Source: Escherichia phage Eps7
Direction: 5' to 3' (one strand)
Length of the DNA stretch: 64,000 nucleotides
Sequence record: NC_010583.1
Shown here in pieces: positions 60,757 through 64,000 of the stretch (position 1 is the first letter of the stretch; the number at the start of each line of letters is the position of its first letter). The position numbers and the translations under genes are program-made. The notes under the pieces were generated by a model. That model worked only from the letters and a program-made list of their open reading frames with translations. It was not told where the DNA came from and ran no database searches.

Positions 60757-60860
60757 ATATCCTCCTTTAGGTTAGGCGTTGAACTGTTACACGTAGTCTT
60801 GGCAAGAAAACAGCTGCCGCTTCTGCAGCGTGAATGATAACACCCAACTCAACGTTGCCA

Positions 60861-62548
60861 TTACCAAGGTTTTTTATTATAAATATATCCATTTCTACGA
60901 AAAGCCATCTCATCAGGTCTACTAGCCCACGTTTGGGTATAGCTATATGAAGTTGTACTGTGATATGGTACTAGATAGCCAGGTGGCAGAGTAAGAATCT
61001 GATGAAATACACCATCACCAGCTGTATAACTTTGTTGACGTCTACCTTGTACCTGCCAAGCACTACCACCGTAAGTACGTACAGGCATACCAGCAGTATT
61101 AAGATTACCCATAATAACTTCAGTAGTTAATATAACAGTAGAGTGAGCATTTGGTAATCCCAACCAAACTGTAGCCAAAGGTGTGTAGAAGTCACCAGCA
61201 CCAGGGTAGGATGGAGTTATATCATCCCCAACATAAGTACTCGCAACGTTGCCTGGGAATAATCTAAGTGGTACGGTACTAGGACTCCATACAGGGCCAT
61301 GCTCATTACCTATAGAGTTGGTATTAGTATCTACATACCACTGTTTACCAACACCAAATTTATAAAGGCTAATTTGAGAAGCAGCACCCCCATAGTTAAC
61401 AGGAGACCACAAACCCCCATTACTAGAGCCGATAAATTCACATCGTGCAGTATTATCACCAAAAACTCCGGTATACGCGGTATTATTACCAACATACTCC
61501 ATATCAGGGCGATAACCTAAGTTTCCAAAAGCATTCTGGTTAATAAATTTATAGCCTGAGTTGGGTAAGCTAACACCTTTAATAGTAAAGTTAGATGGAG
61601 ATATCAGGATATCTGAACCAGTAAATGGATTACCAGAAATCCCCATACTACCATTAGAATAGCGTAGATTTAGCACATACCAAATAACTTTAGTAGGTGT
61701 AACATTATACCAGTCTTGCACATATACCTTTCTAGCTGACTGAGCAGCCATATTAGAAGTAGAACCTCTACAAACATATATTTTTTCTGGGTATGCAGGA
61801 GATTGGTAAAGAACGTTTACGTTATCTGGTAGTACTACCTTTTTTTACCGGCAAAGCCACGAATATTGGAACTACAAACGTAAAACCAATCATGACCTCT
61901 ACCAGCAGACCCGATAGGCGCTTGCCAGTTAGGCTCCCAATAGTCTGCATTACCACCATCTATAGGAACTGTAGATACACCCGTTGGAAAGCCCATTAAT
62001 CCCCAGGCTCTAGAAATAGCTTCACCAGCAGAAACACCACCAGGTCTAAAGATCTGGAAACCGGAAGATTGTAGCAAAGTACCGCCAGTTCCTTGTCTAG
62101 CAATAGATTCCTCATGACCTAGGCTACCATTATAAATATAGGTACCATGAGCTAAACTATCACCGATTGCAAAGGCAGATGTTATTGCCAATTCAGCACC
62201 AGCACGTGGTTGGTCTTCAAAGAATGTTAAAAACTGGCCAACCTGAGATTGTGTACCATTAAGGAAACCCCTATGAGTACCGTTTATCTCAATAGCAGTT
62301 AATATAACTCTACCAGGATCATTGGATTTAATGTTTATAATATCCCAAGGCATCTGAGTAACAAAATACCCATTACCTGCATCACCTAGAGCAGCCTCGT
62401 AAGTCCCATCAACTAGGACAAATGGCATATCTGAGTGGAAGATACTATTAGTATTTGGAGAGTAGTGCTGATTTATATCACCACCATTAGCAGCGTTTAG
62501 AGATAATACAGTTTTACCATCACTAAATTTTCCTGCGAAAAAACTCAT
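60861..62548 (-). CDS. receptor-binding tail protein (functional analogue of T5 pb5/Oad), frameshifted
   Basis: 237-aa and 296-aa ORFs join (~560 aa) if the T7 run (61840-61846) is read as T8; divergent from an Llp-like lipoprotein gene. Confidence 0.6.
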
Positions 62549-62573: not shown

Positions 62574-62602
62574 TTGCTTAGATCCCTCTATTTTGCTATA
62601 AT
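62574..62602 (+). promoter_or_regulatory. T5-type early promoter TTGCTT-17-TATAAT with downstream ATTTATAAATTAAACAGAGGAACG box
   Basis: sequence match to the promoter family. Confidence 0.65.
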
Positions 62603-62631: not shown

Positions 62632-62901
62632 ATGAAAAAGTTACTAGCCATCGTAGTTGCAGCAGCAGTAGTGTTGACGGGTTGTGTACCAGCTCCCGAG
62701 CCATTCTGTAAGGCATACGTGAAGTCTTATGGTCATGTTGGTGAAGAACACTATGCTTTAGATATTCGAGAAGCACGTACTGTGGGCTACCGATTCCCTA
62801 AAACTCAGTTACGCACTAAGTTTGGGTGGTGGGATTTGTCACAGTTTGCTCTCAAATATGGCGATTGCAAATTTAAACTAGAACAATCTGGTCACTTGTA
62901 A
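62632..62901 (+). CDS. llp: Llp-like lipoprotein (putative receptor-blocking superinfection-exclusion protein)
   Basis: signal peptide MKKLLAIVVAAAVVLTGC with LTGC lipobox; 89 aa; divergent from the receptor-binding protein gene. Confidence 0.75.
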   Translation: MKKLLAIVVAAAVVLTGCVPAPEPFCKAYVKSYGHVGEEHYALDIREARTVGYRFPKTQLRTKFGWWDLSQFALKYGDCKFKLEQSGHL

Positions 62902-62975: not shown

Positions 62976-63290
62976 ATGCAAGATGAAGAAAAGTCCTTTC
63001 AGGAACCTGTTAACTTTGAAATAGATCCCAGGACTAAAGCAATACATGATGCAATTAACGAAATCATTCAAGACGTCATAGAAGATACAATAGAAGACGT
63101 GATGAGAACATCCTTCTTACTAGAAGAGTCCGGCTTCGACGAAGTAATGGATCTAATCGGGACAGTCGTAATGGTTCGTGCAATTGCTAGGATATTCCAA
63201 ATACCGGGCTTACAGGAGAAGCAAAGAGATGTCAGACGACAACAGAAGAAAGAACAGACGCGGGGAAGTGTACGAAAGTTGGATAAATAG
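62976..63290 (+). CDS. hypothetical acidic protein (104 aa)
   Basis: ORF with weak RBS. Confidence 0.35.
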   Translation: MQDEEKSFQEPVNFEIDPRTKAIHDAINEIIQDVIEDTIEDVMRTSFLLEESGFDEVMDLIGTVVMVRAIARIFQIPGLQEKQRDVRRQQKKEQTRGSVRKLDK

Positions 63291-63363
63291 TTTCGGATTC
63301 GGAACTGTATTATTCTTTATCTTTGTACTCTTTTGGTTAGCAGCTATGGCGGGGTGGTTATAA
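63239..63363 (+). CDS. small membrane protein (41 aa)
   Basis: AGGAGA RBS; basic N-terminus plus C-terminal TM segment. Confidence 0.3.
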
Positions 63364-63467
63364 TGGAAGTAGTGATTATTGCTTTACTAGTTGTGGTAAT
63401 TATCGGACAGTGCATTCTAGATAACCACTTAGCTCGTATAGAATGTAAGCTGCGGGGAGATAAATAA
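63363..63467 (+). CDS. small membrane protein (34 aa)
   Basis: TAATG coupling; TM segment VVIIALLVVVIIG. Confidence 0.3.
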   Translation: MEVVIIALLVVVIIGQCILDNHLARIECKLRGDK

Positions 63468-63661
63468 TGGATTGGCTAGGACTTATTACACTTGTAGTAT
63501 GGCTTGTCTGGATTGTTGGATATATGACGTCACATCGTAATCGTATACAGCGGCTAGAGGATAAAGTCACCCAACTGAACATTAATATGGATAAGTTACT
63601 GGACTCCCAACGTAATGATCGGGCACGTATTCACCAACTTGAGAGGGAATTAGATGTTTAG
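63467..63661 (+). CDS. small membrane protein with N-terminal TM and coiled coil (64 aa)
   Basis: GGGGAGATAAATA-ATG RBS; LITLVVWLVWIVGY. Confidence 0.45.
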   Translation: MDWLGLITLVVWLVWIVGYMTSHRNRIQRLEDKVTQLNINMDKLLDSQRNDRARIHQLERELDV

Positions 63662-63881
63662 TTTTGTAGCTATCTTCATTATCGGGGTGCTTGCGGGAAT
63701 CTTCGGAACACTCGGGGCGATTAATAAGCATCGTGAATATATTGCGGGAGTATCGCGGGAGCTTTCGGAAAGGGAGCGGAAGTTTGCGGAGAAACGTGCG
63801 GAGTTTGAGCGAGAGTGGTCGGAGGGATCTCGGGCGTCGCGGCGGAGATTTCGGGCTGATTCCGTGAGTTCCCCTAAATAG
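63654..63881 (+). CDS. small membrane protein with N-terminal TM and charged C-terminus (75 aa)
   Basis: overlaps the preceding stop; FVAIFIIGVLAGIFGTLGA. Confidence 0.45.
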   Translation: MFSFVAIFIIGVLAGIFGTLGAINKHREYIAGVSRELSERERKFAEKRAEFEREWSEGSRASRRRFRADSVSSPK

Positions 63882-64000
63882 CGCTAATTTGACTTTTGCC
63901 AAATCTCATAAGATTACACATGAAGGTGTGCCCAGAGGTTCCCTAGATGAGAATGAGTCTCATTACCGCCCCGGTACTTAGCAAGCTAATAGTCACGGCA

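What the first reader, a model, noticed from the sequence alone, without database searches (positions are those of the whole stretch)
63239..63881. Chain of four translationally coupled small membrane proteins beside the lipoprotein gene
Four ORFs of 34-75 aa, each with one predicted transmembrane helix, have overlapping start and stop codons; two also carry coiled-coil or charged tails. This resembles holin/spanin or superinfection-exclusion cassettes, but the exact function cannot be read from sequence.
Basis: inference. Interest (0 to 1): 0.5.

Follow-up and report, generated by a model that had tools for sequence, protein, structure and literature searches.

The report
T5-type small membrane-protein gene chain
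Four tiny back-to-back membrane-protein genes beside the receptor-blocking gene of this T5-like phage are real and present in nearly all relatives (they are T5 genes 159-162), but they are not the lysis genes and their function is still unknown.

Summary
Window 63229-63881 (+) carries four coupled ORFs: A (44 aa), B (34), C (64) and D (75). The junctions are TAATG, TAATG and ATGTTTAG, and each start has a conserved Shine-Dalgarno-like motif. In all four, the called frame has the lowest pN/pS of the six frames (0.16-0.41).

The window is a T5-like Epseptimavirus, and its closest relatives are BD13 and JN-S202001. The ORFs are orthologues of T5.159-T5.162 and BF23 Orf1-4 (PHROGs 8596, 6369, 5851, 6447). 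tblastn finds them in about 310-446 phage records, against about 442 close T5-like records. All known homologues are in T5-like phages.

They follow llp, and a hairpin that the window end cuts closes the unit just inside the right terminal repeat. No terminator was found between llp and the chain.

The holin/spanin reading is not supported. T5 and BD13 carry holin, endolysin and spanins elsewhere. No ORF here has a lipobox. The charged tails are predicted to be cytoplasmic. C is missing from roughly a quarter of relatives.

The most likely role is as accessory inner-membrane proteins co-expressed early with Llp, perhaps for exclusion or protection of the infected cell. This is untested. The genes are already annotated and of modest interest.

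The parts
62574..62602 (+). llp promoter-like site: TTGCTT, 17-nt spacer, TGcTATAAT (extended -10), 30 nt upstream of the llp ATG. Presumed start of the transcription unit.
   Evidence: Read directly from the sequence. The pattern scanner missed it because the -35 matches only 3 of 6. The position matches the -35/-10 signals annotated for llp in the BF23 record and the promoter annotated upstream of llp in T5.
62632..62901 (+). llp: receptor-blocking outer-membrane lipoprotein (Cor/Llp type, BF23/BtuB-like), 89 aa, lipobox LTGC.
   Evidence: phrog_1119 'Cor superinfection exclusion protein', E 4.6e-23. Annotated as receptor-blocking protein in BD13 and Stitch. 66% identical to BF23 Llp.
62976..63290 (+). 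Accessory 104-aa ORF with an acidic N-terminal half, a hydrophobic patch and a basic tail. Its last 62 nt overlap ORF A.
   Evidence: phrog_16810, E 4e-69. Intact in Stitch, BD13 and C13; split in Seafire and polluks. Only a degenerate remnant with stop codons remains in T5.
63229..63363 (+). ORF A (T5.159 orthologue), 44 aa. Basic N-terminal 18 residues, invariant RGEV..W.N..G.G motif, then a C-terminal transmembrane anchor. Predicted N-in, tail-anchored.
   Evidence: phrog_8596, E 2.4e-28. pN/pS 0.16, the lowest of six frames. tblastn finds it in 446 phage records. It is the only member also found in divergent lineages: AAS21, KKP_3711, L015 and L016.
63363..63467 (+). ORF B (T5.160 orthologue), 34 aa. 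N-terminal transmembrane helix and a short basic tail. Start overlaps the stop of A (TAATG).
   Evidence: phrog_6369, E 1.8e-23. pN/pS 0.18. Found in 409 records. Profile-profile match to C: probability 66%, E 5.7e-5.
63467..63661 (+). ORF C (T5.161 orthologue), 64 aa. N-terminal transmembrane helix followed by a six-heptad leucine zipper. Start overlaps the stop of B (TAATG).
   Evidence: phrog_5851, E 6.4e-36. Heptad pattern. AlphaFold2 models a single helix at pLDDT 91. pN/pS 0.41. Found in only 310 records. Precisely deleted in Seafire.
63654..63881 (+). ORF D (T5.162 orthologue), 75 aa. N-terminal transmembrane helix and a charged helical tail with the invariant EFEREW..GSRASR.RFR motif. 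Overlaps C by 8 nt (ATGTTTAG). In this lineage the C-terminal tail is a deletion/fusion derivative.
   Evidence: phrog_6447 'membrane protein', E 1.6e-41. 39 invariant columns. pN/pS 0.29. Found in 432 records. Breakpoints relative to Stitch are at window 63853 and 63871.
63930..64000 (.). Approximate start of the right terminal repeat. The chain is the last unique-sequence gene set before it.
   Evidence: The Stitch repeat_region starts at L001 4608. This maps to about window 63930 through the alignment. In T5, T5.162 ends 42 nt before the repeat.
63988..64000 (+). 5' arm of a terminator-like hairpin, cut by the window end. The full hairpin plus T-run is seen in BD13.
   Evidence: BD13 L002 4436-4474: 11-bp stem followed by TTTTATTTTT, dG -19.1 kcal/mol, z -5.3, 0 of 200 shuffles fold as well. 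T5 has a hairpin of different sequence at the same place.

Best explanation
SHOWN: these are four genuine, translationally coupled genes. They are the orthologues of T5.159-T5.162 (BF23 Orf1-4) and form a lineage-restricted set found in essentially all close T5-like phages. Each encodes a single-pass membrane protein.

INFERRED, fairly firm: they are transcribed together with the early receptor-blocking gene llp from the llp promoter, and the transcript ends at a hairpin just inside the right terminal repeat. SD motifs buried in each upstream gene, together with overlapping stop and start codons, tie their translation together.

The products should insert into the host cytoplasmic membrane. 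A is predicted to be a tail-anchored peptide with its basic N-terminus in the cytoplasm. B, C and D are predicted N-out/C-in, with helical tails in the cytoplasm: a leucine zipper in C and a conserved charged helix in D.

INFERRED, weak: they are non-structural accessory factors that modify the inner membrane of the infected cell soon after DNA entry. In this view they complement Llp's outer-membrane receptor block with an inner-membrane, receptor-independent layer of exclusion or protection. They are not the lysis machinery.

Confidence in gene identity and architecture is about 0.95. Confidence in co-transcription with llp is about 0.7. Confidence in the exclusion/protection role is about 0.3-0.35.
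For: - Identity: PHROG matches at E 1e-23 to 1e-41. T5.159-162 are annotated 'contains single transmembrane domain'. BF23 Orf1-4 are annotated in DQ097178.
- Selection: the called frame has the lowest pN/pS of six frames in all four ORFs, and pairwise dN/dS is below 1.
- Coupling: overlaps and SD motifs are conserved in ten loci. Where C is lost (Seafire), the deletion runs exactly from ATG to ATG and keeps TAATG coupling between B and D.
- Distribution: A in 446, B in 409, C in 310 and D in 432 phage records, against 442 records with TerS at 60% identity or more. Searches of 5.8 billion proteins (D and C) and 1.84 billion cluster representatives (A) found only T5-like homologues.
- Transcription unit: same strand as llp. 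The only terminator-like pattern between llp and D (63287-63308) is weak, with 3 G-C pairs, and lies inside coding sequence. The pattern count is at the level expected by chance. A strong hairpin plus T-run follows D. Llp is an early protein (title of Decker et al. 1994, cited in PMC9586334).
- Topology and shape: charge distribution and hydropathy; single-helix AlphaFold2 models.
- Accessory character: modular gain and loss. C is lost in many genomes; Es2 has an extra B-like paralogue; a fifth gene is present or absent; divergent lineages carry other tiny hydrophobic ORFs after A.
- Independence from receptor type: T5 (FhuA-type llp, not homologous to the window's) and BF23 (BtuB-type) have identical A and near-identical B. 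AAS21 and KKP_3711 keep A next to the RBP gene with no llp at all.
- Not lysis: the lysis genes lie elsewhere.
Against: - No experiment or publication on these genes was found in the held library.
- There is no sequence similarity to any known exclusion protein. Nothing passes a cut-off in Pfam, NCBIfam or PADLOC.
- Topology rests only on the positive-inside rule.
- Co-transcription rests on the absence of a predicted terminator, not on RNA data.
- Cloned llp alone is enough to block the receptor, with a 100-fold or greater EOP drop (PMC4728585). The chain is therefore not needed for Llp function.
- T5 carries many other small transmembrane ORFs in its early region. Adjacency to llp may simply reflect a permissive site next to the terminal repeat.
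Confidence: 0.4

Rival explanations
1. Host take-over or counter-defence. The conserved cytoplasmic tails (the D motif EFEREW..GSRASR.RFR and the C zipper) bind and inhibit a host inner-membrane protein or a membrane-associated abortive-infection or defence system. This would be unrelated to superinfection exclusion.
For: - D's cytoplasmic segment is as conserved as its transmembrane helix (mean entropy 0.48 against 0.47). C's soluble part is more conserved than its transmembrane helix (0.36 and 0.10 against 0.75). This points to specific protein contacts rather than pore formation.
- The pattern of modular gain, loss and duplication is typical of arms-race accessory genes.
- The chain does not co-vary with the receptor module.
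Against: - No homology to known anti-defence proteins, and no PADLOC-related hits.
- No target can be named.
- Part of the conservation at the 3' end of C is forced by the overlapping start and SD motif of D.
Confidence: 0.25
2. Lysis-related. The proteins act as a holin, antiholin or spanin-like set that controls the timing or completion of lysis.
For: - Small single-transmembrane proteins. C has the i-spanin-like layout of an N-terminal transmembrane helix followed by a coiled coil.
- Weak PHROG hits of C to a holin family (E 0.02) and to Rz-like spanin families (E 0.021 and 0.073).
Against: - Complete lysis sets exist elsewhere in T5 (lys T5.040, holin T5.041, spanins T5.044/045) and in BD13 (holin, lysozyme, i-spanin).
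- There is no adjacent endolysin.
- No lipobox ORF in any frame, so there is no o-spanin.
- The tails are predicted to be cytoplasmic.
- C is absent from about 120-135 genomes that keep A and D.
- The genes sit in an apparently early unit with llp.
Confidence: 0.08
3. DNA-entry or membrane-repair function. The proteins help complete second-step DNA transfer, or reseal the inner-membrane channel opened by the tape-measure protein.
For: - Predicted inner-membrane location.
- T5 infection is known to depolarise and then repolarise the membrane (general knowledge of T5 biology, not tested here).
Against: - The genes lie at the extreme right end of the unique sequence. T5 DNA enters left end first (PMC10644984 and bioRxiv 10.1101/866236). 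They therefore arrive last and cannot assist transfer itself.
- A1 and A2 are the known transfer factors.
- C is dispensable.
Confidence: 0.07
4. The ORFs are not functional proteins. They would be chance open frames, or be translated only to couple expression of something else.
For: - They are very short (34-75 aa).
- Two of the three antisense frames of D are also open in nearly all relatives, so openness alone proves little.
Against: - Frame-specific purifying selection in all four ORFs.
- Intact ORFs and conserved SD motifs at about 74% nucleotide identity.
- Invariant sequence motifs.
- Found in more than 400 genomes.
Confidence: 0.03

Closest known systems
T5.159-T5.162 of phage T5 (NC_005859), equal to Orf1-Orf4 of BF23 (DQ097178); PHROGs 8596, 6369, 5851 and 6447
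   Same: Orthologues. Same order, strand, sizes, overlapping junctions and single transmembrane segment. Same position between llp and the right terminal repeat.
   Different: In the window, a 104-aa ORF precedes and overlaps A, whereas T5 has only a decayed remnant. The window's C belongs to the Epseptimavirus type and is only 38-44% identical to T5-type C. D has lost its normal tail and the following fifth gene through a deletion of about 230 nt. None of these proteins has a known function.
Llp/Cor receptor-blocking lipoproteins (T5 Llp, BF23 Llp)
   Same: Same strand and apparently the same early transcription unit. Small, envelope-targeted, non-structural accessory proteins.
   Different: Llp is an outer-membrane lipoprotein that jams its cognate TonB-dependent receptor (PMC9586334). 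A-D have no signal peptide or lipobox and are predicted to be inner-membrane proteins. They do not co-vary with the receptor type, and A persists in phages with no llp.
Inner-membrane superinfection-exclusion proteins such as T4 Imm and HK97 gp15 (recalled from general knowledge)
   Same: Small phage-encoded inner-membrane proteins, made independently of virion genes, that block DNA entry of later-arriving phages. This is the mode of action proposed here.
   Different: No sequence similarity was detected in PHROGs, Pfam or NCBIfam. No exclusion phenotype has been tested. The system here has four components and is translationally coupled.
i-spanins (lambda Rz; T4 PseT.3 type, T5.044/045)
   Same: C has an N-terminal transmembrane helix followed by a coiled coil, like an i-spanin.
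   Different: PHROG hits reach only E 0.02-0.07. There is no o-spanin partner. The predicted orientation is the opposite one. C is dispensable. The true spanins are encoded elsewhere.
PspB (envelope-stress response membrane protein)
   Same: Similar size of about 70 aa. N-terminal transmembrane helix with a leucine-zipper-like C-terminal helix.
   Different: Pfam scores 16.7 bits against a cut-off of 25.6. NCBIfam scores 15.8 bits against 90. hhalign probability is 15%. This is a resemblance in architecture only.

Membership tests
T5.159-T5.162 orthologous set (PHROGs 8596/6369/5851/6447) | Significant full-length profile match of each ORF to the corresponding family | tested here: met
   E 2.4e-28, 1.8e-23, 6.4e-36 and 1.6e-41, each covering essentially the whole profile.
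T5.159-T5.162 orthologous set (PHROGs 8596/6369/5851/6447) | Conserved synteny: downstream of the RBP and llp genes, on the llp strand, immediately before the right terminal repeat and dmp | tested here: met
   The same arrangement is seen in T5, BF23, Stitch, BD13, polluks, SE11, C13, Seafire and Es2.
T5.159-T5.162 orthologous set (PHROGs 8596/6369/5851/6447) | One hydrophobic transmembrane segment per protein | tested here: met
   Kyte-Doolittle 17-residue maxima of 2.25-3.25. The T5 record notes a 'single transmembrane domain' for all four.
Holin | Encoded in a lysis cassette next to an endolysin gene | tested here: not met
   The neighbours are llp, a 104-aa ORF and dmp. Holin and endolysin lie about 88-90 kb away in BD13 and T5.
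Holin | Homology to a described holin family | tested here: not met
   The best hit is phrog_1296 at E 0.02, for C only. No Pfam or NCBIfam holin hit was found.
Holin | Lethal, timed permeabilisation of the cytoplasmic membrane | not testable with these tools
   This needs inducible expression and lysis or depolarisation assays.
Two-component spanin (i-spanin plus o-spanin) | A cognate outer-membrane lipoprotein gene embedded in, overlapping or adjacent to the i-spanin gene | tested here: not met
   No ORF in any of the six frames of 63150-63950 has a lipobox within its first 35 residues.
Two-component spanin (i-spanin plus o-spanin) | i-spanin with N-in/C-out topology and a periplasmic coiled coil | tested here: inconclusive
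   C has a transmembrane helix and a coiled coil. However, its N-terminus carries no positive charge and 4 K/R follow the transmembrane helix, which favours N-out/C-in. This is a rule-based prediction only.
Two-component spanin (i-spanin plus o-spanin) | Homology to Rz-like families | tested here: not met
   phrog_214 at E 0.021 and phrog_7584 at E 0.073. The Rz-like spanins of T5 are T5.044/045.
Superinfection-exclusion proteins (functional class) | Expressed early or independently of virion genes, together with a known exclusion gene | tested here: inconclusive
   Same strand as llp, with no convincing terminator between them, and a strong hairpin after D. No transcript data were found.
Superinfection-exclusion proteins (functional class) | Sequence relationship to a characterised exclusion protein | tested here: not met
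   No hit passes a cut-off in PHROGs, Pfam, NCBIfam or PADLOC.
Superinfection-exclusion proteins (functional class) | Expression reduces infection by the same or related phages | not testable with these tools
   This needs EOP assays. The only related published data concern llp alone (PMC4728585).
PspB | Score above the curated family cut-off | tested here: not met
   Pfam PF06667: 16.7 bits against 25.6. NCBIfam NF006993: 15.8 bits against 90. hhalign probability 15%.
MotB/ExbD/TolR-type transmembrane anchor (considered for ORF A) | Profile similarity, including the conserved transmembrane Asp | tested here: not met
   Pfam MotB_plug: E 0.049, 13.7 bits against 24. hhalign probability is 1.4% against MotB and 0.5% against TolR. 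The Asp position aligns with Phe.

The most novel reading that the evidence does not exclude
A-D assemble, through the B/C zippers and the D tail, into an inner-membrane complex. This complex would give the infected cell receptor-independent immunity, for example by stopping the tape-measure channel of any later T5-like phage (FhuA-, BtuB- or FepA-dependent) from opening the cytoplasmic membrane. It would be a second exclusion layer behind Llp. A is the conserved core subunit and the downstream small proteins are interchangeable modules. The idea could also bear on the unexplained gap between the two published llp clones: a 100-fold EOP drop for the DT57C clone, which ends at the start of A, against more than 10^6 reported for BF23. 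What the BF23 clone contained could not be checked here.
Probability: 0.15. Interest if true: 0.6.

Novelty: already known. Interest (0 to 1): 0.3.

Why it matters
These genes are among the most conserved unexplained genes of the T5-like phages. They occur in more than 400 sequenced genomes, many of them Salmonella and E. coli phages under study for biocontrol or therapy. They sit in the one locus already known to reprogram the host envelope (RBP and llp).

If they form an inner-membrane exclusion or host-manipulation module, that would affect how T5-like phages compete in cocktails. It would also add a multi-subunit system of tiny proteins to the short list of understood inner-membrane exclusion mechanisms.

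As things stand, this finding adds no new kind of element. It re-identifies annotated hypothetical genes, rules out the lysis reading, and defines their boundaries, coupling, variability and likely topology well enough to design the experiments.

Tried and rejected
- **Literature.** Searches for T5.159-162 (only numeric noise), for llp and downstream genes, for T5 transcriptomics, for phage gene-essentiality screens and for T5-like, receptor-blocking and transmembrane terms found no functional data. The BF23 genome paper, the phiR2-01 proteogenomics paper (no supplement held), Davison's injection preprint, the accessory-gene screen and the DT57C paper do not discuss these ORFs. Mondigler et al. 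2006 is not held.
- **Remote homology.** Nothing passes a cut-off in Pfam, NCBIfam or PADLOC. Profile searches with D and C against 5.8 billion proteins, and an exhaustive HMM search with A against 1.84 billion cluster representatives, returned only T5-like phage proteins plus one spurious repeat protein.
- **Architectural look-alikes.** PspB-like and MotB/TolR-like readings were rejected. C and D are not detectably related to each other.
- **Paralogues.** None were found elsewhere in the window or in the T5 early region.
- **RNA elements and repeats.** No Rfam match and no meaningful repeats.
- **Internal promoter.** The promoter-like hit at 63337-63364 was rejected. Its -10 hexamer overlaps the ATG of B and is not conserved in T5-type sequences.
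- **Source names.** 'Tail assembly protein' for C homologues and 'tail fiber protein' for a B homologue look like propagated mis-annotations. The BF23 virion proteome text lists no such component.
- **More distant Demerecviridae.** Proteus phage Stubb and Klebsiella phage KPN4 were uninformative because of how the records are permuted or left unannotated.
- **Fold search.** Not run, because single-helix models give meaningless matches.
Full report
**What the window is**

The 1.45 kb around the finding is 99.7% identical to Salmonella phages BD13 and JN-S202001. It is 95-98% identical to many Epseptimavirus genomes, a genus of T5-like phages in Demerecviridae, Markadamsvirinae. The four-ORF stretch itself is 100% identical to JN-S202001.

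Annotated relatives show the local map:
- terminase genes and the pb5/Hrs-like receptor-binding protein gene on the minus strand;
- the receptor-blocking lipoprotein gene llp on the plus strand;
- several small plus-strand ORFs;
- the right terminal repeat, which begins with the minus-strand dmp gene.

**Checking the observation**

The four ORFs are A 63229-63363 (44 aa), B 63363-63467 (34 aa), C 63467-63661 (64 aa) and D 63654-63881 (75 aa). The start is 10 nt too far downstream.

A/B and B/C share one base (TAATG), and C/D overlap by 8 nt (ATGTTTAG). Each ATG has a Shine-Dalgarno-like motif 6-14 nt upstream, inside the coding sequence of the previous gene. These motifs are conserved in nine other loci.

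Each protein has one strongly hydrophobic segment. C has six regular heptads and D has a very charged tail. AlphaFold2 predicts C (pLDDT 91) and D (pLDDT 73) as one long helix each.

One correction is needed. The chain is not directly beside llp (62632-62901). A 104-aa ORF (62976-63290, phrog_16810) lies between them and overlaps A by 62 nt.

**Are they genes?**

Openness alone is weak evidence, because two antisense frames of D are also open in nearly all relatives. I therefore compared substitution patterns in all six frames across eight loci at about 74% nucleotide identity.

For every ORF the called frame has the lowest pN/pS: A 0.16, B 0.18, C 0.41, D 0.29. Most other frames are near or above 1. 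The main exception is the antisense frame that shares the third codon position, as expected. Pairwise dN/dS values agree.

All four ORFs match their own PHROG at E 1e-23 to 1e-41. They are the orthologues of T5.159-T5.162, each annotated 'contains single transmembrane domain' in the T5 record. They also correspond to Orf1-4 in the BF23 llp-region record. A is real even though it overlaps the 104-aa ORF, because A is intact in phages that lack that ORF (T5, BF23, SE11, Es2).

**Distribution and variability**

tblastn against 50,697 phage records finds A in 446, B in 409, C in 310 and D in 432. The small terminase subunit finds 442 records at 60% identity or more, plus 465 more distant Demerecviridae. 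The chain is therefore close to universal in the close T5-like phages and undetectable beyond them.

Wider searches returned only T5-like phage proteins:
- profile searches with D and C against 5.8 billion proteins;
- an exhaustive HMM search with A against 1.84 billion cluster representatives, which found four small clusters plus one spurious hit.

The chain is modular.
- C is missing from about 120-135 genomes that keep A and D. In Seafire the deletion runs exactly from the ATG of C to the ATG of D, which preserves TAATG coupling.
- Es2 has an extra B-like paralogue.
- B and C are probably paralogues themselves (hhalign E 5.7e-5, probability 66%).
- Stitch and Es2 have a fifth, soluble acidic gene coupled to D. 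The window lineage has lost it through a deletion of about 230 nt that also replaced D's tail.
- A is the constant element. Pantoea phage AAS21 and Enterobacter phage KKP_3711 have no llp, yet an A homologue sits next to the RBP gene. In AAS21 it is followed by three unrelated tiny hydrophobic ORFs.
- Two metagenomic lineages show llp, then A, then other small hydrophobic ORFs.
- T5 (FhuA-type llp) and BF23 (BtuB-type llp) have identical A and near-identical B, so the chain does not co-vary with the receptor module.

**Transcription unit (inferred)**

A sigma-70-type promoter (TTGCTT, 17-nt spacer, TGcTATAAT) lies at 62574-62602. This is the position annotated for the llp promoter in BF23 and T5.

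No convincing terminator lies between llp and D. The only terminator-like pattern there (63287-63308) is weak and lies inside coding sequence, and the pattern count is at chance level.

After D, BD13 has an 11-bp hairpin followed by TTTTATTTTT (dG -19.1 kcal/mol, z -5.3). The window ends inside its 5' arm, at 63988-64000. T5 has a hairpin of different sequence at the same place.

Llp is known to be made early (title of Decker et al. 1994, cited in PMC9586334). The chain ends about 50 nt before the terminal repeat.

**What it is not**

T5 encodes endolysin (T5.040), holin (T5.041) and Rz-like spanins (T5.044/045) in its early region. BD13 encodes holin, lysozyme and i-spanin about 88 kb from this locus.

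No ORF in any frame of 63150-63950 carries a lipobox. Hits of C to holin or Rz PHROGs reach only E 0.02-0.07. B, C and D have no positive charge before the transmembrane helix and 3-4 K/R just after it, which predicts cytoplasmic tails. C is also dispensable. The holin/spanin reading is therefore not supported.

Resemblances to PspB and to MotB/TolR anchors fall below every threshold. There is no RNA family match, no meaningful repeat, and no paralogue elsewhere in the window or in the T5 early region.

**Most likely mechanism**

- Shown: four conserved, coupled, single-pass membrane-protein genes.
- Inferred with fair confidence: an early polycistronic message shared with llp, and insertion into the cytoplasmic membrane. 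A would be a tail-anchored peptide, and B, C and D would have cytoplasmic helical tails.
- Inferred weakly: an accessory role in modifying the inner membrane of the infected cell, most plausibly receptor-independent exclusion or protection that complements Llp.

The genes lie at the far right of the unique sequence, and T5 DNA enters left end first. They therefore reach the cell last, which argues against a role in DNA transfer itself.

The main rival is host take-over or counter-defence through the conserved cytoplasmic motifs. I found no experimental data on these genes.

One published oddity is a lead only. DT57C llp was cloned with a reverse primer that sits on the start of A, so the clone excludes A-D. 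It reduced plating 100-fold, whereas more than 10^6 was reported for the BF23 clone, and the authors could not explain the difference (PMC4728585).

**Verdict**

The genes are already annotated in T5, BF23 and hundreds of relatives and already have PHROG families, so this is an already known element of unknown function. Interest is modest (0.3). It would rise if the inner-membrane exclusion reading were demonstrated.

Noticed in passing
window 60767-62548 (- strand): The receptor-binding protein gene (pb5/Hrs-like) carries a 2-nt insertion near 61836-61837 and a 2-nt deletion near 60874 relative to Stitch and BD13. Residues 235-559 are therefore read in another frame, and the gene splits into ORFs 61835-62548 and 60861-61751. 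The shifted middle part is still 98% identical to Stitch at protein level. This points to a sequencing or assembly error, or to a very recent disruption.
   Followed up: partly
window 62976-63290 (+): A 104-aa ORF (phrog_16810, function unknown) lies between llp and ORF A and overlaps A by 62 nt. It has an acidic N-terminal half, a hydrophobic patch and a basic tail. It is intact in Stitch, BD13 and C13 and split in Seafire and polluks. T5 keeps only a remnant with stop codons. In polluks an HNH homing endonuclease gene lies between this ORF's remnant and ORF A.
   Followed up: partly
window 63853-63871; Stitch L001 4301-4549: The window lineage (with BD13 and JN-S202001) lacks about 230 nt that Stitch has. 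The deletion removes a fifth, soluble acidic gene coupled to D (Stitch gp165, 71 aa; Es2 homologue, 67 aa). It fuses D at about codon 67 to that gene's last codons and stop codon.
   Followed up: yes
L009 (Escherichia phage Es2) 1623-1790: Es2 has an extra 55-aa B-like paralogue between A and B. Its sequence looks like B with an inserted heptad segment. This shows tandem duplication within the chain.
   Followed up: partly
L011 (Pantoea phage AAS21) 2064-2502; L012 (Enterobacter phage KKP_3711) 3492-3940: These divergent Markadamsvirinae phages have no llp between the RBP gene and dmp, but they keep an ORF A homologue. In AAS21 it is followed by three unrelated tiny hydrophobic ORFs. In KKP_3711 it is followed by a 110-aa ORF. 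The A homologue is not annotated in KKP_3711.
   Followed up: partly
window 63988-64000; BD13 L002 4436-4474; T5 L003 4101-4139: A strong hairpin followed by a T-run lies just inside the terminal repeat, between D and the convergent dmp gene. T5 has a hairpin of different sequence at the same position. Because it lies inside the repeat, a copy must also sit at the extreme left end of the genome.
   Followed up: partly
public annotations of homologues: Homologues of C are named 'tail assembly protein' in several NCBI and UniRef entries. A B homologue in phage SE11 is named 'tail fiber protein'. Nothing in sequence, context or the BF23 virion proteome text supports these names, so they look like propagated errors.
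   Followed up: partly
T5 NC_005859 10.9-27 kb (L010): The T5 early region holds many other small ORFs annotated with one or two transmembrane domains: T5.020, .021, .027, .029, .030, .031, .048, .049 and .052. Small membrane proteins are therefore common in this phage. None is detectably related to A-D.
   Followed up: partly
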